64,000 nucleotides of DNA from Candidatus Bathyarchaeota archaeon (lineage in GTDB: Archaea > Thermoproteota > Bathyarchaeia > Bathyarchaeales > Bathycorpusculaceae): NCBI GenBank assembly GCA_963733095.1, contig CAVTBV010000013.1, positions 160,001 to 224,000 on the forward strand, given 5' to 3'. Below, in pieces: positions 1 through 7,357 of this stretch. The number at the start of each line of letters is the position of its first letter. The first letter of the stretch is position 1. The notes beneath the pieces were generated by a model. That model was not told the DNA's origin. It saw only the letters and a program-made list of their open reading frames with translations, and ran no database searches. The translations under genes were made by a program, and so were the position numbers.

Positions 1-1240
1 TCCTATAATTTAGTAAATACTCAAAAATTTCGCTTTTACTTTCAGGCAATTTGTTTTCATTTTGCTCAAATAACTTTACAAGACGTACTAAGTAAAATGG
101 TATCTTCAATAAAGCACCAAGGTAGCCGTTTTGAACAGCATCAAAAAAAACTTCTGCCTTTTTTTCGAGTACCGTTCCGACATATCTTTGTATTTCTTGA
201 TAATCTAAATCGAGAAGGACATAAGACAAGAAACCATTTATTGTTCCTGATTCTTCACCTTTTTCTTGATTATAAAAATTATTTCGACTCGAAATAAGTA
301 TTTTACAAAATTGATGCTGTTCCGCAAATAATTCTATTTTTCGAACTGCATCATTTTTATTTTTAGCTTCGATTTCATCTAAGCCGTCAAGGATAACCAG
401 AATTCTATTTTCAGGGTTTGTTGTCCAACCATCTCCAAGTAATTCAGAAATATCTTGATTTACATATTTGTTTAATGGTAAAAAGAATGGAACTAAGGGT
501 GAATCAGTCATTGAAAAGAACCCTTCTATTCTTCTCAGCTCCGTTGTTTTTCCTATTCCCGCGTCACCCAACAGAACTATTCTATTTTGCTTTTCAACAA
601 TATCAGGAAGATCTCCGGATTCACTAGGCAGAAATAATCCAAAAGAGTTGTAGTCTTTTGTAGACACGACTTTTCTTTGAAGATAATTTTTATTTTCTTC
701 CTTTGGCTTTCCAAAATGAACACTAGTCAATGAGAACCAATTTACTATTTTGTAACTAATATCTTGGTGAATTTTCTTCCTAAATTCCTTCGCTTCGAAA
801 TCTTTGTAAAGTCCTAACGGTTTGAGTTTTTCCTTAAATTTCTTTACTGCAAAAATTTGTTCCGTATCATCCTCTGGGGAATCATTAGTTTTGAAATATA
901 CGCTAATCAATGGCTTTCTTGTGTTATTATAACGATTGAATGCCCTGTCAAACTCTTCTTCAGTCGGTGTGAGCCCATTCGCTTGTTTTATTCCGAAATG
1001 TTTCCATAAAATACCAATGTAAATGTCATAATCGTCCCTGATTTGCTTATTTATTACTGACTGTGCTCCTTCTCCCGTTATTAGAGAAACAGTGTTTTGC
1101 TTCCATTCAACAATATCAAAAATATATCGAGATGAGAATGTACTCTCTATTTTTTTGCATTCTTCAATTGCAATTAGTTTTTCCTTTTCAACATCTTCTG
1201 GGTAAGAAATAAATATTCTAATTAGCGTTTTAGGGAGCAC
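1..1240 (-). CDS. DUF4062-like N-terminal domain + NACHT/STAND NTPase; runs off the left edge; absent from the ORF track
   Basis: Manual translation from GTG at 1240 stays open to the window edge: MLPKTLIRIFISYPEDVEKEK...YDIYIGILWKHFG...GLTPTEEEFDRA (DUF4062-like), Walker A LLGDAGIGKTT, Walker B ILVILDGLDE, ILISSR. AT-rich. Confidence 0.85.
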   Translation of the reverse strand, partial: MLPKTLIRIFISYPEDVEKEKLIAIEECKKIESTFSSRYIFDIVEWKQNTVSLITGEGAQSVINKQIRDDYDIYIGILWKHFGIKQANGLTPTEEEFDRAFNRYNNTRKPLISVYFKTNDSPEDDTEQIFAVKKFKEKLKPLGLYKDFEAKEFRKKIHQDISYKIVNWFSLTSVHFGKPKEENKNYLQRKVVSTKDYNSFGLFLPSESGDLPDIVEKQNRIVLLGDAGIGKTTELRRIEGFFSMTDSPLVPFFLPLNKYVNQDISELLGDGWTTNPENRILVILDGLDEIEAKNKNDAVRKIELFAEQHQFCKILISSRNNFYNQEKGEESGTINGFLSYVLLDLDYQEIQRYVGTVLEKKAEVFFDAVQNGYLGALLKIPFYLVRLVKLFEQNENKLPESKSEIFEYLLNYR

Positions 1241-1478: not shown

Positions 1479-1760
1479 ATGGTTGGAGAAATAAACACAA
1501 TAATCGAATTAAACCCTGAATTGGCAAATTTAGCATATGAAATAGGTTTAAATCCATCTAAAATATGCGAAAGTGCCATAAAATTGGCAATACGGCGTCT
1601 AAAGGGCTTAAATGTTGAGAAATTGATGGTGGACGAGGCGGGATTTGAACCCGCGACCTCCACGATGCCAACGTGGCGATCATGCCAGACTGATCTACTC
1701 GCCCAAACTATCTGGCTTCTACATTCTAATTCGGCTCGTTTAATAAGCGTTTCTTATTGA
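1479..1760 (+). pseudogene. Probable int(N) fragment of an SSV-type tyrosine integrase, reading antisense into tRNA-Ala
   Basis: GGAGG SD at 1464-1468 and ATG at 1479. MVGEINTIIELNPELANLAYEIGLNPSKICESAIK (RHH/CcdA-like) is followed by VDEAGFEPAT, encoded by the tRNA complement. Confidence 0.55.
1627..1704 (-). tRNA. tRNA-Ala(GGC), CCA encoded
   Basis: GGGCGAGTAGATCAGTCTGGCATGATCG-CCACG-TTGGCAT-CGTGG-AGGTC-GCGGGTTCAAATCCCGC-CTCGTCC-ACCA forms a cloverleaf. Confidence 0.97.
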
Positions 1761-2134
1761 GGGATTTCGTTTATTATTGGGGTTTCCAACGTTGGACTTT
1801 GGGGTTCATCGGGTTGCTGGCTAAACGGTGTGCCTCAGTAGCACTTGTTTTAGGGCGCCTCCAATAATTCTACTTCTAATCCACGATAATCCAAGTAGCT
1901 TTCCAAGAGTTCTTTATAGATCTTAACTCCAGAAATGATGCCAGATAACCTCAGTATCTCGCCTTGTCCAAGCCTGGTGTTTCCAGCCCCCCCAACGTGG
2001 CACAAAGCTTCTTTAATTCTTCTTCGATGCTGGGTAATTCTTTGGGGATTTCTAGTGTGGTAGAACACTCATGAAAGACAAGCCATCGAAGTACCGAAGG
2101 CACCTAAGACTTACCCTAAACCAGCAAATCACCT

Positions 2135-3178
2135 CTATCCATTTAAAGACTTAAGCTTTTTGGCATACCTCACCTCATCAACCGACTCATACGGCTCCTT
2201 TCTAGTCAACATAAACCAAATAATCTTTAGCATCTTATTCGCAACAGCAACCACCGCCTTCTGATCACCACGCCGCTTAGCAACACGCTCATAGAAAGCC
2301 TTCATCCTTGGATCAAACACAGACCCAACCCTAGCAGACTCAACCATAATCCACCTAAGCATAGTGCTGCCCTGCTTTGTAATATTGCCATGATATTCGA
2401 TATCGCCTGACTGATGCAAAGACGGTGCAAGTCCAGCCCAAGAAACAAGCTTCTTATAATCGCTAAACCGCTCAATACTGCCAATCTCTGACTTAATCAG
2501 CAAAGCACTATACACGTTAATTCCCTTCAAACTCAACAGTAGCCTAACGTCACTATCAAAAGAAGCCCTCGACGTAATCTCCGCATCCACACGCTCTATC
2601 TGCAAATCCAGGTTCTCCAAATGCATCAAATAGTTATCCAGCATCAACCGATCAAGCCCAGACAACTCCAAAGACTTCAACCACTGTATTCCCGCTTTGC
2701 CAAACAAATCACTAAATTCATGTTTGAGGCCATTTCGATCAATCAAAGCATGAGCCTTATTCTTCACCATCGTACGCAACTTAACAATTGATAATCGATG
2801 ACGTACTAAGCTTCGTATTTCTCTCATTTCTTTAGGCGGAACATAGCACTCTGGAATCAAATCAGTCCTCAAAAGATGCGCCAGAATCCTAGCATCAACC
2901 TTATCACTCTTAATTCTAGCTGAAGCTATCGCTTTAGTTCTCAACGGATTCGCCAACACCACAGGAATATGCAGCTCATCTAATTGATTGTATAGGTCCA
3001 GCCAATAAGGTCCAGTGGACTCCATTACAACCTTATCATCCATCGACAGCAGCAGAGTTAGGCTAGCTATTCCATCGGAATTGTTGTTGAAATCAAGCTC
3101 TTTTACGATTCTTCCTTGAGGGTTCATTATTGCTGCTCGGCACTTTTTCTTTCCAATATCTACTCCTACATACTTCAT
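2135..3178 (-). CDS. IS110 family transposase (DEDD RuvC-like bridge recombinase)
   Basis: GVDIGKK, VMESTG, KSDKVDA (DEDD) and C-terminal GLAPSLHQSGD serine motif. Likely start is ATG 3178. Confidence 0.96.
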   Translation of the reverse strand: MKYVGVDIGKKKCRAAIMNPQGRIVKELDFNNNSDGIASLTLLLSMDDKVVMESTGPYWLDLYNQLDELHIPVVLANPLRTKAIASARIKSDKVDARILAHLLRTDLIPECYVPPKEMREIRSLVRHRLSIVKLRTMVKNKAHALIDRNGLKHEFSDLFGKAGIQWLKSLELSGLDRLMLDNYLMHLENLDLQIERVDAEITSRASFDSDVRLLLSLKGINVYSALLIKSEIGSIERFSDYKKLVSWAGLAPSLHQSGDIEYHGNITKQGSTMLRWIMVESARVGSVFDPRMKAFYERVAKRRGDQKAVVAVANKMLKIIWFMLTRKEPYESVDEVRYAKKLKSLNG

Positions 3179-3184
3179 TTCTAG

Positions 3185-3325
3185 TTTCCTGCTGGTTTCA
3201 GGCTGCATTCACTCATACGGGCGTTTGGCCCAGTTCTTTAGCAGCTCAGGATTCGCCCAGTCAACAACGCGGTCGCAAAGACCATGTTCTACCACGGGCT
3301 AACCAGCCAGTACAAGTTGGCAGAA
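3185..3325 (-). ncRNA. Predicted IS110 bridge RNA (target-binding loop 3255-3299, donor-binding loop 3202-3245)
   Basis: Two stem/internal-loop/stem units whose loop strands match the flanks and the element ends. Transcript ends are approximate. Confidence 0.8.
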
Positions 3326-3700
3326 GTCTTTCATAAAGTCAACAACAATTGGAATTTTTTGGGTGTTGTTGTTCTTTCAGAAGTCCTATTTTTATGAGTT
3401 TTGGCGAACCGCTTCTTCAGTGTATTCTCCGTTAAAGCTGAAGGGTAAGACGCCAAGATCAGTGGTTCCATACTTGTACCAGTCTTGAAGTTTATGCTCG
3501 TCGTCTGCAGGCCATTGCTTCCCTTTTGGCATGTTTTTTGCCCCACAAATAATCCAACTATTGTGCCGCTTGTCATGTCTGAACCTGAGCTTTGTCCTAC
3601 TGATGCTTCGCCCAACTCTTTTTTCGGTGATTTGTGGTCCTAACTCTTTTTCTAATCTCTCTCAAAATTATTTGTTTTGTAGGTCAATTTACCGTTTAGC

Positions 3701-6700
3701 TCATTGGGGGGGCAAACGTATACTGAATTTTGTTCCTTTTCCTACTTGGCTTTCAAAAGCTACCGTGCCGCCTAAAGCTTCAGTCATACGCTTAATTACG
3801 GCTAAACCAAATCCCTGACCTTTAGCTTTAGTCGTGAACATTGGCGTGAATAATTTGTTTTTCACGCTTTCAGGTATGCCAACGCCTGTGTCTTCTACTG
3901 TTATGACCGAATCATGTTTTTTCTTGTCTCTGAAAGCATGTATCGTTAATTGGCCGCCTTCCGGCATTGCTTGAACCGCATTATTAACCAAATTGAACAT
4001 AATACGATTAATGAAACAAGAGTCAGCCATAATTTTCCTAGCATCAGTTTCCACTGCGACACTTATGCTAACATTCTCAGGCCAACCGTTCTTTGCTATC
4101 AACTCATCCACTACTAGCTTAAGGTCGGTTTCCTCAACTCGAGGGCTAAGTGGTCTGGCAAAATCTTGCAAATCCTGAACGATCTTGTTGATGTAAGTGA
4201 CGTTCTTTTCAATCTCGCTCAAACTTTCTAAAGTATTCTTTTTCTCTTCGCTCTCAGGCGTCAAAGCCAACTCTGCCTTGGCCAAATAGACATCGCTAGT
4301 TATAGCCTGTAAAGGGTTTCGAATATCATGACCAACCATCCCGGCAGTCGTTCCGATGGCGGCTAAACGTTCAGAATCTCTAAGCTGGATTGTTCGCTCT
4401 TCGACCAGCTTTTCTAAATTTCCACTATATTCTTTGAGCTTATCTTGTATTGCCTTGCGTTCGGTAATATCCATGAATAAAGACGCAAACATCCCTTTAT
4501 TTGGACTAAAAGAATAAACTTCGTAATATCGACGGGTGTTTTGGTTATAACTTTCAAAATGAGCGGGTTCACCAGTCAACGCGACATTACAATAAGCTTG
4601 GACCCAACTATCCTCAAGCCCGGGAAGAGCCTGTTTTATCGTTTTCCCCATCAGTTCAGTTAGCTTAAGACCTGTTTGCTTCTCAAAAGCATTATTTGCT
4701 TCAATTATGCGAAAATCAACAGGAATTCCTTTACTATCAAGGATTGGTTCACCTAAAAAGAAGGCTTCGTCCATATTAGCAAAAAGGGTACGATATCGCA
4801 GCTCGCTGTCACGCAGAGCCGATTCTATTTTTTTGCGTTCAGTATTGTCTGTGAAGGTTAAAACAGCGCCATCAATTCTTTTCTCTTCACTTAAATACGG
4901 ACGGATTCTAATTTCACATAGTCTGTCTCCACTGAGTGCAACTTCTCGATCGACAGCCTTTAGTTTAGTGATCGAATCCAGAATTGCGCCTTCTAAATCT
5001 GCACCCTGAACACCTATGTTTACTTTAGTTATTGGCTGCCCCACATCGGATGGAGAAATTTTCAAGTAACTTTGAGCAGAAGATGTAAACCGCCTAATCT
5101 TCAGGTCGTTATCTACAATAACCACTGGCAAATCAATATTTGTTTGCAGATTAGCTAAGTCATCATTTAGGCGTCCAAGCGCCAAATTTCGGTTCTTGAG
5201 CTCCTCATTAAGTGTCTGTAGTTCCTCGTTTCCAGACTGCAGCTCCTCTTTTGCCGTTTCCAACTCTTCATTGGTGCTCTGTAATTCTTCATTGCTGGAT
5301 TGCGCTTCCTCCATGGTTGATCGCAATTCTTCATTTGTTGCTTCTTGCACTTCAATAATGGTCTGCAAAGACTGCTTGGTTGACTCCAATTCCCCTTTAA
5401 GATCATTAATTTGTCCATCTTTGATGGACTTCTTTTCGCCAGGTATTTTTGTAGTTTCAGTTTCCTGAGATAAATTATAAAGTTGTATTGTGGGTTCTTG
5501 GAATGTTACAATGAAAAAGGGTTCTTCATAATCCGTTGTTTTCAAGGGTTTAACTTGGATAATTACGGTTTTCTGTTCCCCGTCGCTTTTGAACTGAATG
5601 GTTTCTTTTTGAGTTTTGTTTTCTTTTCTTGCTAAGTAAACTGAAGTTTGAACGTTGGTCCTCAATTCTTTGCGAACCATTTTTGTCACATTTAAGCTTG
5701 CGGTTCCTGATTCATGCCTTAGGTATGGGTTAACTTGTCCGCGGAAAAAAAGAATATCCAAATTATTACTTACAAGTAGAGTTGCGGGAACATACTCAGC
5801 CATTAATAGACGGTCGACATCTTCTTTGAGCGAAACCATAGAATTGGGCTTCTCAGATTGCTTTTCCAGTTTTTTTTGGAAACTGTAGGGAACAAATGTT
5901 TCTGGATGCGAAAAGGCCTGGGGCTGGGATCGTTTCTTTTTGTAGATTAAACCTTTGGTGGTGACTGGTTCGAATAGGTAACTGAATTTGCCTATGCTCT
6001 CCGATTCGCCTAAAACAAGAAAACCGTTAGACTTCAACCCATAATGAAAGATTGGAAAGACTCTTTCATGCAGCAAAGAATCAAAGTAAATCAAAACATT
6101 GCGGCACATTATCAGGTCTAGGTTGGAGAAGGGTGGATCGCTTGTTATGTCCTGCTTTGCGAATATGCACATGTCGCGGATTAGTTTGGTTATATGGTAG
6201 TTTCCATTTTGCATGCTAAAGAAACGTTTCAGTTTGCTCTCAGAAATATTTTCTTCTATGGTTTTGGGGTATATTCCTTGGCGAGCTTTGTCTATGTTTT
6301 TTTCATTTGCGTCAGTGCCAAAAATTTGAACCCGAATTTCGGGTTTGGCTTTTTCTTCTAAGAATTCCTGAACTGCTATAGCAATGGAGTAGACTTCTTC
6401 ACCCGTTGAACAACCTGGAACCCAAACTCTAATAGATTCATTAGCCACGCGGTTTTTGATCAGCTCGGGAAAGACTTTTTCTTCTAAAGCCTTGAAGGTT
6501 TTTGGTTCTCTAAAGAAACTTGTAACCCCTATGAGAAGGTCATCAAACAACGCAAGGATCTCGTTTGGGTGGGTTCGTAGAAATGCCACGTATTCTTTGT
6601 TGTTTTCTATTTTGTTTATTACCCTGCGTCGTGTGATACGCCGGTTTATAGTTGTTTCTTTATAGTGGGTAAAATCAACGCCGTATGAGGCCTTAAGCAT

Positions 6701-7357
6701 CATGAGGATTCTTTTAAGGTCAGTTTCACCTTTAGCTTTCTGTAGAGCTTCTGAAGGGGGAAGCGCGAGTTGGGGGTTCCTGGCGAGTCTAACTAATTCT
6801 TTTGCTATGTTTTCGGGAGAGAGAATAAAATATGCTGTTTCAGCATTTATGGCGTTTTTGGGCATGTCGGGGTATTGAGCTGTCTCGGGGTCTTGAACGA
6901 AAGTTATGCCTCCTTCAACTTTGATTGCTTTTAGTCCTTCGGTTCCATCATTTCCCGTTCCTGAGAGTACGATTCCGATTGCTTGGGTTTTTCGCTCTGA
7001 GGATAAGGAAATCATGAAGTCGTTGATTGGTTTGAGAGCTTCACCTTTAGGAACAAGTTTAAGGAGACCTTTTTTTAGGGTCATAGTTGTTGCTGGGGGG
7101 ATGACATAAACTTGGTTCTTTTCAACTTTCATTCCAACGGTGACTTGTAGAACCTTCATTTGGGTGGATCTGGAGAGGATTTCTGGAAGCATGCTTTCTT
7201 GTCCTGGGGCTAAATGTTGGATGACAACAAACGCCATACCTGTATCTATGGGCAAGGTTTCTAGCAGTTTCCTGATGGGATCTAATCCGCCTGCAGAAGC
7301 TCCAATCCCAACAATCGGAAACTCGTTTACAGCTCTGGTTTCAGAAACGCTTTCTAT
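3701..7357 (-). CDS. CheB-CheR-coiled coil-PAS-PAS histidine kinase fusion
   Basis: FPIVGIGASAGG, IQHL, SGTGNDG (CheB); WVPGCSTGEEVYS, CRNVLIYF (CheR); GHDIRNPL and GQGFGL (kinase). The frame is open upstream of 7255 to ATA at 7357. Confidence 0.92.
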   Translation of the reverse strand: MESVSETRAVNEFPIVGIGASAGGLDPIRKLLETLPIDTGMAFVVIQHLAPGQESMLPEILSRSTQMKVLQVTVGMKVEKNQVYVIPPATTMTLKKGLLKLVPKGEALKPINDFMISLSSERKTQAIGIVLSGTGNDGTEGLKAIKVEGGITFVQDPETAQYPDMPKNAINAETAYFILSPENIAKELVRLARNPQLALPPSEALQKAKGETDLKRILMMLKASYGVDFTHYKETTINRRITRRRVINKIENNKEYVAFLRTHPNEILALFDDLLIGVTSFFREPKTFKALEEKVFPELIKNRVANESIRVWVPGCSTGEEVYSIAIAVQEFLEEKAKPEIRVQIFGTDANEKNIDKARQGIYPKTIEENISESKLKRFFSMQNGNYHITKLIRDMCIFAKQDITSDPPFSNLDLIMCRNVLIYFDSLLHERVFPIFHYGLKSNGFLVLGESESIGKFSYLFEPVTTKGLIYKKKRSQPQAFSHPETFVPYSFQKKLEKQSEKPNSMVSLKEDVDRLLMAEYVPATLLVSNNLDILFFRGQVNPYLRHESGTASLNVTKMVRKELRTNVQTSVYLARKENKTQKETIQFKSDGEQKTVIIQVKPLKTTDYEEPFFIVTFQEPTIQLYNLSQETETTKIPGEKKSIKDGQINDLKGELESTKQSLQTIIEVQEATNEELRSTMEEAQSSNEELQSTNEELETAKEELQSGNEELQTLNEELKNRNLALGRLNDDLANLQTNIDLPVVIVDNDLKIRRFTSSAQSYLKISPSDVGQPITKVNIGVQGADLEGAILDSITKLKAVDREVALSGDRLCEIRIRPYLSEEKRIDGAVLTFTDNTERKKIESALRDSELRYRTLFANMDEAFFLGEPILDSKGIPVDFRIIEANNAFEKQTGLKLTELMGKTIKQALPGLEDSWVQAYCNVALTGEPAHFESYNQNTRRYYEVYSFSPNKGMFASLFMDITERKAIQDKLKEYSGNLEKLVEERTIQLRDSERLAAIGTTAGMVGHDIRNPLQAITSDVYLAKAELALTPESEEKKNTLESLSEIEKNVTYINKIVQDLQDFARPLSPRVEETDLKLVVDELIAKNGWPENVSISVAVETDARKIMADSCFINRIMFNLVNNAVQAMPEGGQLTIHAFRDKKKHDSVITVEDTGVGIPESVKNKLFTPMFTTKAKGQGFGLAVIKRMTEALGGTVAFESQVGKGTKFSIRLPPQ

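What the first reader, a model, noticed from the sequence alone, without database searches (positions are those of the whole stretch)
2057..3346. Archaeal IS110 with a readable bridge RNA that matches its own insertion site
Seen (RNA sense = minus strand): target-binding loop GCCC-GUGGUAGAACAU-GGUC-UUUGC-GACC-GCGUUGUUGACU-GGGC (3255-3299). Its 5' strand equals the left flank plus core GTGGTAGAA-CA (2057-2067, 11/11). Its 3' strand GUUGUUG is the reverse complement of core plus right flank CAACAAC (3340-3346), and the next bases ACU match the donor side (3337-3339), where IS621 has handshake guides. Donor-binding loop GCUGC-UAAAGAACU-GGGC-CAAAC-GCCC-GUAUGAGUGAAU-GCAGC (3202-3245): AUGAGUG is the reverse complement of core plus element end CACTCAT (2066-2072, 7/7), while UAAAG only partly matches the other end (3334-3338). 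Known: IS110 recombinases are RNA-guided (IS621 bridge RNA). Inference: an intact, reprogrammable archaeal bridge recombinase with a CA core and an apparently longer target guide. It combines an upstream RNA with 9-bp subterminal inverted repeats, and its target and donor read on the strand opposite to the RNA.
Basis: partly seen in the sequence, partly recalled or inferred. Interest (0 to 1): 0.85.

Follow-up and report, generated by a model that had tools for sequence, protein, structure and literature searches.

The report
Archaeal IS110 element with bridge RNA
An intact jumping gene in a Bathyarchaeia genome carries a guide RNA whose two loops spell out the DNA site it landed in and its own ends; it belongs to the known RNA-guided IS110/IS1111 family but mixes the layouts of the two described groups.

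Summary
Window 2068-3339 (minus strand) is a 1272-bp IS110-family element. It has an intact DEDD recombinase gene and an upstream 121-nt RNA (3307-3187) folded as a three-way junction with two internal loops. The target loop matches its own flanks (11/11 and 7/7 plus ACU). The donor loop matches the element ends plus the CA core.

In 17 representative homologues the loop strands change together with each element's own flanks. The mean exact runs are 8.2 and 6.7 nt, against 3.3 for loops paired with other elements' flanks. The core covaries in three guide strands.

The target is one arm of a dispersed palindrome. The guide order and the 9-bp subterminal repeats match the IS1111 group (checked on ISEc11). 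The RNA lies upstream, as in the IS110 group. The recombinase is a third lineage, about equally distant from both groups.

The "longer guide" is peculiar to this copy, since 8-9 nt is typical. Transcription and activity are not shown. This is a new variant of a known kind, and the interest is moderate.

The parts
2068..3339 (-). IS110-family insertion sequence (1272 bp), bounded by the CA core on both sides
   Evidence: The boundaries follow from uninterrupted homologous sites and from where copies and contexts diverge in G022, G001 and run X1.
2066..2067 (+). core dinucleotide CA (left copy)
   Evidence: It occurs once in empty sites and twice around the element. It covaries (CA or CT on this strand) with three guide strands in homologues.
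3340..3341 (+). core dinucleotide CA (right copy)
2057..2067 (+). target half-site plus core, identical to the 5' strand of the target loop
   Evidence: 11/11 match; covaries in homologues.
3340..3346 (+). core plus the other target half-site, complementary to the 3' strand of the target loop
   Evidence: 7/7 match, or 10/10 with the element's AGT; covaries in homologues.
2135..3178 (-). DEDD recombinase gene (347 aa from the ATG at 3178; stop included)
   Evidence: PF01548 at 2.7e-28 and PF02371 at 5.5e-21. D7, E53, D92, D95 and S257 align with IS621 D11, E60, D102, D105 and S241.
3187..3307 (-). bridge RNA core, a three-way junction of an outer stem, a target arm and a donor arm
   Evidence: covariance model R1 scores 135 bits here.
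3255..3299 (-). target-binding loop. 5' strand 3295-3284; inner hairpin 3283-3271; 3' strand 3270-3262; ACU tail 3261-3259.
3202..3245 (-). donor-binding loop. 5' strand UAAAG 3240-3236; 3' strand AUGAGUG 3216-3210.
2071..2079 (.). subterminal inverted repeat, arm ATGAAAGAC
   Evidence: I5; conserved in homologues.
3326..3334 (.). subterminal inverted repeat, arm GTCTTTCAT
   Evidence: I5
3364..3375 (.). intact arm TGTTGTTGTTCT of the target palindrome; the other arm (AGAACA, 2062-2067, and ACAACA, 3342-3347) is split by the element
   Evidence: the palindrome is a dispersed repeat in the genus.

Best explanation
Window 2068-3339 is a structurally intact RNA-guided insertion sequence of the IS110 family in a Bathyarchaeia genome.

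Shown by sequence comparison:
- The minus strand encodes an RNA of about 121 nt directly upstream of a DEDD (RuvC-like plus Tnp) recombinase gene.
- The RNA folds into an outer stem that closes two arms, each with an internal loop.
- In the target loop, the 5' strand is complementary to the RNA-sense strand of core plus downstream flank.
- The 3' strand of that loop is complementary to the other strand of upstream flank plus core. It is followed by ACU, which equals the first three bases of the element.
- In the donor loop, the 3' strand covers the last five bases of the element plus the core.
- The 5' strand of the donor loop covers bases 2-6 of the other end.

Inferred by analogy with IS621 and ISEc11:
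- The element excises as a circle that joins its ends through one CA core.
- The RNA bridges that junction and a target of the form GGTAGAA-CA-ACAAC within a recombinase tetramer.
- Strand exchange at the core inserts the element without a duplication.
- The ACU tail pairs after exchange and so favours insertion.

The natural target is one arm of a dispersed palindrome. In layout the element is a third combination: the RNA is upstream as in the IS110 group, while the guide order and the long subterminal repeats are those of the IS1111 group.
For: Family. Both Pfam domains are present, and the catalytic residues align with IS621.

RNA. The five helices are 96.7% paired in 21 homologues. Six pairs show compensatory change, and versions with the 3' partner slid are only 21-43% paired. 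RNAalifold finds the same helices independently.

Guides. In 17 representative elements the 5' target strand shares an exact run of mean 8.2 nt with its own flank, and the run is at least 6 nt in 16 of 17. Against other elements' flanks the mean is 3.3 nt, with 4.8% of 272 pairs at 6 nt or more. For the 3' strand the figures are 6.7 nt (at least 6 in 16 of 17) against 3.3 nt (10.3%).

Core. It is TG in most elements and AG in two lineages (RNA sense). It changes together in the target 5', target 3' and donor 3' strands.

Donor 5' strand. UAAAG, UAUAG and UAAGG follow element starts ACTTTA, ACTATA and ACCTTA.

G001. Its four identical copies sit at four sites that share the half-sites its loop encodes.

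Empty sites. Five uninterrupted homologous sites in other genomes read GGTAGAA-CA-ACAAC (AGAAGAA- in L069), and one in this genome reads GTAGAA-CA-ACAAC.

ACU tail. It equals the element start in 47 of 51 positions and the pre-exchange partner in 6 of 51.

Polarity. It matches ISEc11, read on L075, and the published statement for IS1111 seekRNAs. It is opposite to IS621.

Mobility. A DNA run holds at least three different left-junction contexts, but it may be the source sample. G022 has the element as a collapsed repeat contig with separate junction contigs.
Against: - No direct evidence of transcription. Contigs of two RNA libraries cover the RNA region, but they come from relatives (about 91% and 96% identity), run on into the flank, and could be DNA carry-over.
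- There is only one copy in this genome.
- The donor 5' strand pairs with only 5 nt and does not cover the core. IS621 includes the core in all four guides. Donor recognition may therefore rest partly on the protein binding the subterminal repeats.
- The donor loop's 3' tail shows no handshake signal: 11 of 34 positions match, about chance level.
- Some copies break the rule. L042 (internally deleted) has a run of 2 on one side, L024 has 5, L048 has 5, and L025 has 3 on the 3' strand, which a G-U wobble would repair.
- The single-sequence fold is not more stable than shuffles (z = -1.0).
Confidence: 0.85

Rival explanations
1. The element is a bridge-RNA insertion sequence by descent but is now an immobile fossil in this genome. 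Its RNA and gene are no longer expressed or active.
For: There is a single copy in the genome. At least one other plausible target, GTAGAACAACAAC at C13:107039, is unoccupied.
Against: The open frame is full length and all five catalytic residues are present. Both loops still match the flanks and ends perfectly. All helices are intact. An 89%-identical element is multi-copy in a congener. One DNA run holds several junction contexts.
Confidence: 0.1
2. The internal copies of flank and end sequences act as DNA, for example as protein-binding or synapsis sites. The RNA fold is incidental and recognition is by protein only.
For: The 9-bp subterminal repeats are conserved even in relatives at 37-39% protein identity (Rhizobium). 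This suits protein recognition of the ends. The donor 5' strand pairs with only 5 nt.
Against: Stems keep pairing through compensatory changes (6 pairs, 8), which a DNA-site model does not require. The guide arrangement is the same as in ISEc11 and IS621, where the RNA was shown to be needed. Each loop holds one strand's sequence on one side and the complement on the other, as strand-specific RNA pairing requires.
Confidence: 0.03
3. It is simply an ordinary IS1111-group member in which the non-coding region has moved upstream, like the published exception ISMtsp17, and not a separate variant.
For: The guide order and the long subterminal repeats are of IS1111 type. The seekRNA paper reports a few IS1111 relatives with an upstream non-coding region.
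Against: The recombinase scores 61.5 and 52 bits against ISEc11 and IS5075, which score 206 bits against each other. It scores 61-66 bits against IS621 and ISCro4. It therefore does not lie inside the tight IS1111 cluster. The layout is shared by a whole archaeal clade and by a more distant subfamily.
Confidence: 0.2
4. The matches between loops and flanks are chance matches in low-complexity sequence.
For: The stretch holds other 9-12-nt inverted matches that have no obvious role (I3, I6, I7).
Against: and above all: the matches move with the flanks in 17 representative elements.
Confidence: 0.01

Closest known systems
IS621 / ISCro4 (IS110 group; bridge RNA, solved structures 8wt6 and 9t56)
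   Same: DEDD recombinase with the same five catalytic residues aligned. RNA upstream of the gene. Two internal loops, one for the target and one for the donor. A 2-nt core on both sides with no duplication. A tail after the 3' target guide that matches the donor, at the handshake position. A target in a dispersed palindrome: the title of reference 6 places IS621 in REP sequences.
   Different: Guide polarity is reversed. Here the 5' loop strand pairs with the RNA-sense strand of the downstream flank. [quoted passage not shown] The subterminal repeats are 9 bp against 2-3 bp. The donor 5' strand does not cover the core. An outer stem closes both arms. Protein similarity is only 61-66 bits.
ISEc11, ISPa11, ISKpn4 (IS1111 family; seekRNA)
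   Same: The segment complementary to the top strand lies 5' of the segment complementary to the bottom strand. On ISEc11 in L075 I read ACAGUAUUUU, a hairpin, then GUGAAAA. Long subterminal inverted repeats. Palindromic or repeated targets (ISPa11 in REP sequences).
   Different: In those elements the RNA lies downstream of the recombinase gene; here it lies upstream. Protein similarity is 52-62 bits, against 206 bits within the IS1111 pair tested.
ISMtsp17, ISHvo10, ISAcp5 (exceptions named in the seekRNA paper)
   Same: Described as IS1111 relatives with an upstream non-coding region, or with long non-coding regions on both sides. ISHvo10 bears a haloarchaeal name (my recall of the naming rule).
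   Different: I could not see their sequences, RNAs or guide order, because the supplements are closed. Whether they share this layout is unknown.
Unnamed 'IS110 family transposase' elements of haloarchaea and Alphaproteobacteria (Halanaeroarchaeum, Halobellus, Afipia, Rhizobium)
   Same: These are the nearest annotated relatives, at 37-43% identity and 231-266 bits. The Rhizobium element has the same ATGAAAGA/TCTTTCAT subterminal repeat.
   Different: Model R1 finds no match in the two that I searched, L073 and L074. The Rhizobium element has the longer non-coding region downstream, about 270 nt against about 150 nt, and lies next to GGAG. I did not locate its RNA.

Membership tests
IS110 family in the wide sense (RNA-guided DEDD recombinase elements) | Recombinase with DEDD_Tnp_IS110 and Transposase_20 domains, and the D-E-D-D plus Ser catalytic residues | tested here: met
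   (99 and 75 bits, both over the cut-offs). One search aligns D7, E53, D92, D95 and S257 with the IS621 residues named.
IS110 family in the wide sense (RNA-guided DEDD recombinase elements) | Site-specific insertion with a shared 2-nt core at both junctions and no terminal inverted repeats or target duplication | tested here: met
   Empty sites have one CA and the occupied site has CA on both sides.
IS110 family in the wide sense (RNA-guided DEDD recombinase elements) | Non-coding RNA with loops that base-pair with both strands of the target and of the donor | tested here: met
   Covariation of loop strands with flanks and ends and a covarying fold. The pairing itself is inferred, not observed.
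IS110 family in the wide sense (RNA-guided DEDD recombinase elements) | RNA is transcribed, binds the recombinase, and is required for recombination | not testable with these tools
   Only contigs of RNA libraries from relatives cover the region.
IS110 group (IS621-like) | Bridge RNA in the non-coding end upstream of the recombinase gene | tested here: met
   RNA at 3307-3187, gene start at 3178. The same holds in all 21 aligned homologues.
IS110 group (IS621-like) | [quoted passage not shown] | tested here: not met
   The order is reversed relative to the RNA sense.
IS110 group (IS621-like) | Only a short (2-3 bp) subterminal inverted repeat | tested here: not met
   A 9-bp perfect repeat.
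IS1111 group | Subterminal inverted repeats of 7-17 bp | tested here: met
   ATGAAAGAC/GTCTTTCAT, 9 bp, lying 3 and 5 nt inside the ends.
IS1111 group | The segment complementary to the top strand lies 5' of the segment complementary to the bottom strand | tested here: met
   the same reading on ISEc11.
IS1111 group | Long non-coding region and RNA downstream of the recombinase gene | tested here: not met
   The downstream non-coding end is 67 bp (2068-2134), and the RNA lies upstream.
IS1111 group | Recombinase related over its full length to that of IS1111 and clustering with that group | tested here: inconclusive
   52-62 bits to IS5075 and ISEc11, against 206 bits between those two, and 61-66 bits to IS621 and ISCro4.

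The most novel reading that the evidence does not exclude
This element and its relatives in Bathyarchaeia, Nitrososphaeria and an Asgard MAG form a third, so far undescribed architectural class of bridge-RNA elements. The RNA is upstream (IS110-like). The guide polarity and the long subterminal repeats are IS1111-like. The RNA is a compact three-way junction, and its donor loop reads only 5 + 7 nt and leaves the core unread on one side. If so, RNA position and guide polarity are separable characters. Flipping the near-palindromic donor site would then convert one group's layout into the other's, which would give an intermediate for the proposed move of the RNA between the element ends.
Probability: 0.35. 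Interest if true: 0.55.

Novelty: new variant of a known kind. Interest (0 to 1): 0.42.

Why it matters
The element gives a clean, fully readable archaeal example of RNA-guided recombination. The boundaries, core, both guide loops, the empty site and the natural target repeat can all be read from sequence.

It shows that the two characters used to separate the IS110 and IS1111 groups, RNA position and guide order with long subterminal repeats, do not always go together. This bears on how the RNA moved between the element ends during evolution, and on how much of donor recognition is done by RNA and how much by protein.

The RNA is compact (121 nt) and the recombinase is small (347 aa) and from a distinct lineage. 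That makes it a candidate for testing as a programmable recombinase.

Its significance is limited for three reasons. Bridge RNAs are already known across the family. Archaeal IS110 recombinases have been catalogued: 662. A 2026 survey built 86 bridge-RNA models from bacterial and archaeal genomes, and these may already include this RNA.

Tried and rejected
- Rfam. No family matched the RNA region at E up to 1; only a tRNA at 1630-1704 was found.
- Other copies. I looked in the own genome by DNA, by protein and by Pfam family and found none. Boundaries therefore had to come from relatives.
- Reads. There were no joints, so there is no circle junction and no empty-site allele of this very locus. 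Only contigs were laid, and contigs drop rare variants, so this says nothing about excision. RNA-library contigs X22 (3076-3378, 26 differences in 303) and X24 (3168-3347, 8 differences in 180) cover the RNA region of relatives. They run on into the flank and may be DNA. X23 covers only part of the gene. I do not count any of this as expression.
- Model R1. It found nothing in the haloarchaeal, Afipia, ISEc11 and IS5075 loci.
- Phylogenetic placement. I could not fetch IS621-group or ISfinder sequences, so I used bit scores instead of a tree.
- RNA of the Rhizobium relative. I looked for matches between junctions and non-coding regions. One copy has a candidate in the downstream region, but the 81%-identical second copy does not match its own flank. 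I left this open.
- Donor-loop handshake. None was found.
- Pfam on the interrupted host gene family. Nothing was found.
- A regular-expression parse of the loops missed several elements. I replaced it with an alignment.
- Rows dropped before the own-versus-cross count (21 tabulated, 17 used). L020 has only 6-7 nt of flank held and is near-identical to the window. L024 and L031 have the same RNA as L023, apart from 1-3 nt in the 5' target strand. L042 is internally deleted and its right flank does not match (run of 2).
- Duplicates kept out of the alignment. L032 is a duplicate of L005. L011, L015 and L018 are further copies of L004.
- Borrowed flanks. The right flanks of L036 and L048 were taken from other contigs of the same MAGs (L033, L028). 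That they belong to the same element is an assumption.
- Literature. No paper in the held library describes this layout. The following may bear on novelty: Supplementary Fig. 2 of PMC11187229, Supplementary Table 5 of PMC11208160, and the cluster tables of the preprint 10.64898/2026.10.21.760802.

Papers, and what I saw of each:
- PMC11208160: passages.
- PMC11187229: abstract, passages and section 9.
- PMC11208158: passages.
- PMC13626964: passages.
- 10.1101/2024.06.21.599552: passages.
- 10.64898/2026.10.21.760802: passages.
- PMC13604230: passages, including Table 1.
Full report
THE OBSERVATION

On the minus strand lies an open frame of 357 aa, or 347 aa from the ATG at 3178 where homologues start. 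It carries both Pfam domains of IS110-family recombinases: PF01548 at 2.7e-28 and PF02371 at 5.5e-21.

The 11-mer GTGGTAGAACA occurs twice in the 64-kb window, at 2057-2067 (+) and 3285-3295 (-). 0.03 occurrences are expected by chance. AGTCAACAAC occurs at 3259-3268 and 3337-3346. The 9-bp inverted repeat ATGAAAGAC/GTCTTTCAT lies at 2071-2079 and 3326-3334.

The centroid fold of the minus strand shows the two stem-loops with internal loops at the places given. The single-sequence energy is not unusual, with z = -1.0. Rfam has no matching family.

BOUNDARIES, CORE AND EMPTY SITE

The element is single-copy in its genome, so I used relatives.

- A congener, G022, holds an 89%-identical copy as a collapsed 1285-bp repeat contig corresponding to window 2061-3345. 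Separate junction contigs go with it.
- Another congener, G001, holds four identical copies of a 67%-identical element at four different sites.
- Both flanks of the window's element are homologous to a sequence that is uninterrupted in other genomes of the genus. In G015, G098, G097 and G088 the left-flank match and the right-flank match overlap by exactly two bases. G081 was reached through its right flank only.
- Read out, four of the five uninterrupted sites from other genomes show GGTAGAA-CA-ACAAC. One of these (L068) shows GTGGTAGAACAACAAC in full. The fifth (L069) reads AGAAGAA-CA-ACAAC. A sixth site, in the window's own genome at C13:107040, reads GTAGAA-CA-ACAAC after a 3-nt difference.

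THE RNA

I aligned the region between the left end (RNA sense) and the start codon from 21 elements: the window, two congeners, and contigs of Bathyarchaeia, Nitrososphaerota and one Asgard MAG.

A structure of five helices has 96.7% of cells paired. The helices are an outer stem GCUGG/CCAGC, the closing and inner stems of a target arm, and the closing and inner stems of a donor arm. Six pairs change on both sides, and 0 of 500 shuffles reach the observed covariation score. Versions with the 3' partner slid by 1-3 columns are only 21-43% paired.

RNAalifold, run without my structure, returns the same helices and extends the outer stem by two covarying pairs. The RNA core is window 3307-3187, a three-way junction of 121 nt.

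GUIDES COVARY WITH FLANKS AND ENDS

For each element I compared the four loop strands with its own flanks and ends. The results for the 17 representatives are below; the rows I dropped are listed under Tried and rejected.

| Loop strand | Mean exact run with own flank | Elements with a run of 6 nt or more | Mean run with other elements' flanks | Cross pairs at 6 nt or more |
|---|---|---|---|---|
| Target loop, 5' strand | 8.2 nt | 16 of 17 | 3.3 nt | 4.8% of 272 |
| Target loop, 3' strand | 6.7 nt | 16 of 17 | 3.3 nt | 10.3% of 272 |

- The 5' target strand is compared with the reverse complement of core plus downstream flank. The 3' target strand is compared with upstream flank plus core.
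- Most of the high cross-pair values come from elements that share a target type.
- The core is TG (RNA sense) in most elements and AG in two lineages. The target 5' strand, the target 3' strand and the donor 3' strand (AUGAG-UG or AUGAG-AG) all change with it.
- The donor 5' strand reads UAAAG, UAUAG or UAAGG where the element starts with ACTTTA, ACTATA or ACCTTA. Three other variants are compatible with G-T wobble.
- The four G001 copies sit at four sites that share the half-sites encoded in the loop.
- Exceptions exist. L042 (internally deleted) does not match on one side. L024, L048 and L025 have short runs.

The 11-nt match in the window is the longest seen. Of the 17 runs, 13 are 8-9 nt. 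The 89%-identical RNA differs at the tenth position. A longer guide is therefore not a property of the family.

THE ACU TAIL

The three bases after the core match in the 3' target strand are ACU in all but one element (GCU in the G018 copy L009). They equal the first three bases of the element in 47 of 51 positions. They equal the bases that follow the core in the unrecombined target in 6 of 51.

This is the place and the behaviour of the IS621 handshake guide, which pairs after strand exchange and favours insertion. The corresponding tail of the donor loop shows nothing: 11 of 34 positions match.

POLARITY AND GROUP

The seekRNA paper states that in IS1111-family elements the segment complementary to the top strand comes first, and that the order is the opposite in the IS110 type. 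I checked this on an annotated ISEc11 copy. Its downstream non-coding region reads ACAGUAUUUU, then a hairpin, then GUGAAAA, against the junctions GTGAA| and |AATACTGT. This is the same polarity as here.

The 9-bp subterminal repeat is also an IS1111 character, since that group has 7-17 bp against 2-3 bp in the IS110 group. The RNA, however, lies upstream of the gene, which is the IS110-group character.

The recombinase itself is a third lineage.

| Compared pair | phmmer bits |
|---|---|
| Window recombinase vs IS621 | 61 |
| Window recombinase vs ISCro4 | 66 |
| Window recombinase vs ISEc11 | 61.5 |
| Window recombinase vs IS5075 | 52 |
| ISEc11 vs IS5075 | 206 |
| ISEc11 vs IS621 | 35 |

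The nearest annotated relatives are unnamed IS110-family genes of haloarchaea and Alphaproteobacteria, at 231-266 bits and 37-43% identity. A Rhizobium relative keeps the ATGAAAGA/TCTTTCAT repeat but has the longer non-coding region downstream.

The literature names a few exceptions with upstream or double non-coding regions: ISMtsp17, ISHvo10 and ISAcp5. I could not see their sequences.

THE TARGET

The insertion splits one arm of a perfect 12-bp palindrome, AGAACAACAACA-N16-TGTTGTTGTTCT. The palindrome is a dispersed repeat in the genus. Exact copies of GAACAACAAC-N(8-30)-GTTGTTGTTC number 2 in this genome (plus the interrupted one), 7 in G022, 7 in G062, 10 in G023 and 0 in G061. The reversed-pattern control gave none.

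In G098 the palindrome lies inside a 150-aa open frame, where it is read as KEQQQ...CCCS. The window's copy of that gene is split by the element and is frameshifted as well. No Pfam family matches it. Targeting of repeated palindromes is usual in this family.

SPREAD

- Model R1 finds the RNA in further congeners.
- It finds the RNA in 6 of 151 sampled genomes of the phylum, counting the window's own.
- Two complete genomes hold five and four copies of a more distant subfamily. That subfamily has the same layout and its own 10-bp subterminal repeat.
- In a DNA run that may be the source sample, the element's contig ends at 2062 and 3346. At least three different left contexts join it there. 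This fits repeated insertion into sites that share TAGAA-CA and CA-ACAAC.

WHAT IS NOT SHOWN

- Transcription is not shown. Contigs of two RNA libraries cover the RNA region, but of relatives, and they run on into the flank.
- No circle junction was seen.
- RNA binding and recombination are not shown.
- The mechanism is inferred from IS621 and ISEc11.

NOVELTY

Bridge RNAs are established for both groups of the family. Archaeal IS110 recombinases have been counted: 662 in 2,835 genomes. A 2026 preprint modelled 32,190 bridge RNAs with 86 covariance models from bacterial and archaeal genomes and looked specifically for longer guides.

What may be new is the combination of an upstream RNA with IS1111 polarity and long subterminal repeats, in a distinct and mostly archaeal recombinase lineage. 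None of my four literature searches found it described, but the supplements were closed. I rate it a new variant of a known kind, of moderate interest.

Noticed in passing
window 1951-2067 and 3395-3532 (minus strand); L064:1242-1694: The element interrupts a copy of a small multi-copy gene, which is 150 aa in G098. The coding sequence of that gene contains the target palindrome, read as KEQQQ-loop-CCCS. The loop holds a T/A run of variable length, and several copies, including the window's, are frameshifted there or nearby. No Pfam family matches it.
   Followed up: partly
window 3079-3090 and 3339-3350: There is a 12-nt perfect inverted match (AATTGTTGTTGA/TCAACAACAATT) between the recombinase coding region (codons for FNNN) and the right junction (last base of the element, the core and 9 nt of flank). 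It is probably chance in GTT-rich sequence. I did not check it in homologues.
   Followed up: no
window 2100-2134 (short non-coding end), esp. 2118-2126: Read in RNA sense, the short end downstream of the gene contains GCUGGUUUAGGG. This resembles the start of the bridge RNA (GCUGGUUAGCCC). A GCTGG[CT] motif recurs at this place in homologues. It could be a remnant or a second binding site, and its function is unknown.
   Followed up: no
L093, L094, L098, L099, L101-L105 (G124, G169): A more distant subfamily is present in five and four copies in two complete genomes of the phylum. It has the same upstream-RNA layout and the same TG core. Its ends are different (AACACATGATAACC...GGTTAACATAGA) and it has a 10-bp subterminal repeat, GGGGTGGTTA.
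   Followed up: partly
L077:443-1923 and L080:1501-2965 (Rhizobium jaguaris plasmid): Bacterial relatives at about 39% protein identity keep the ATGAAAGA/TCTTTCAT subterminal repeat. They sit directly upstream of start codons next to GGAG, and have about 270 nt of non-coding sequence downstream against about 150 nt upstream. One copy has a downstream segment that matches its right junction.
   Followed up: partly
window 1630-1704 (-), 2-1240 (-), 3701-7255 (-): The neighbours of the element are a tRNA gene (62 bits), an open frame with a GDAGIGKT P-loop that runs off the window start, and an 1184-aa open frame that by eye looks like a multi-domain sensor kinase. I analysed none of them further.
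   Followed up: no
G000 C13:107039, C7:121889, C13:326836: Three unoccupied sites in the same genome read TAGAACAACAAC. They match 7-8 nt of the 5' guide and all 7 nt of the 3' guide, so they are candidate further targets.
   Followed up: no
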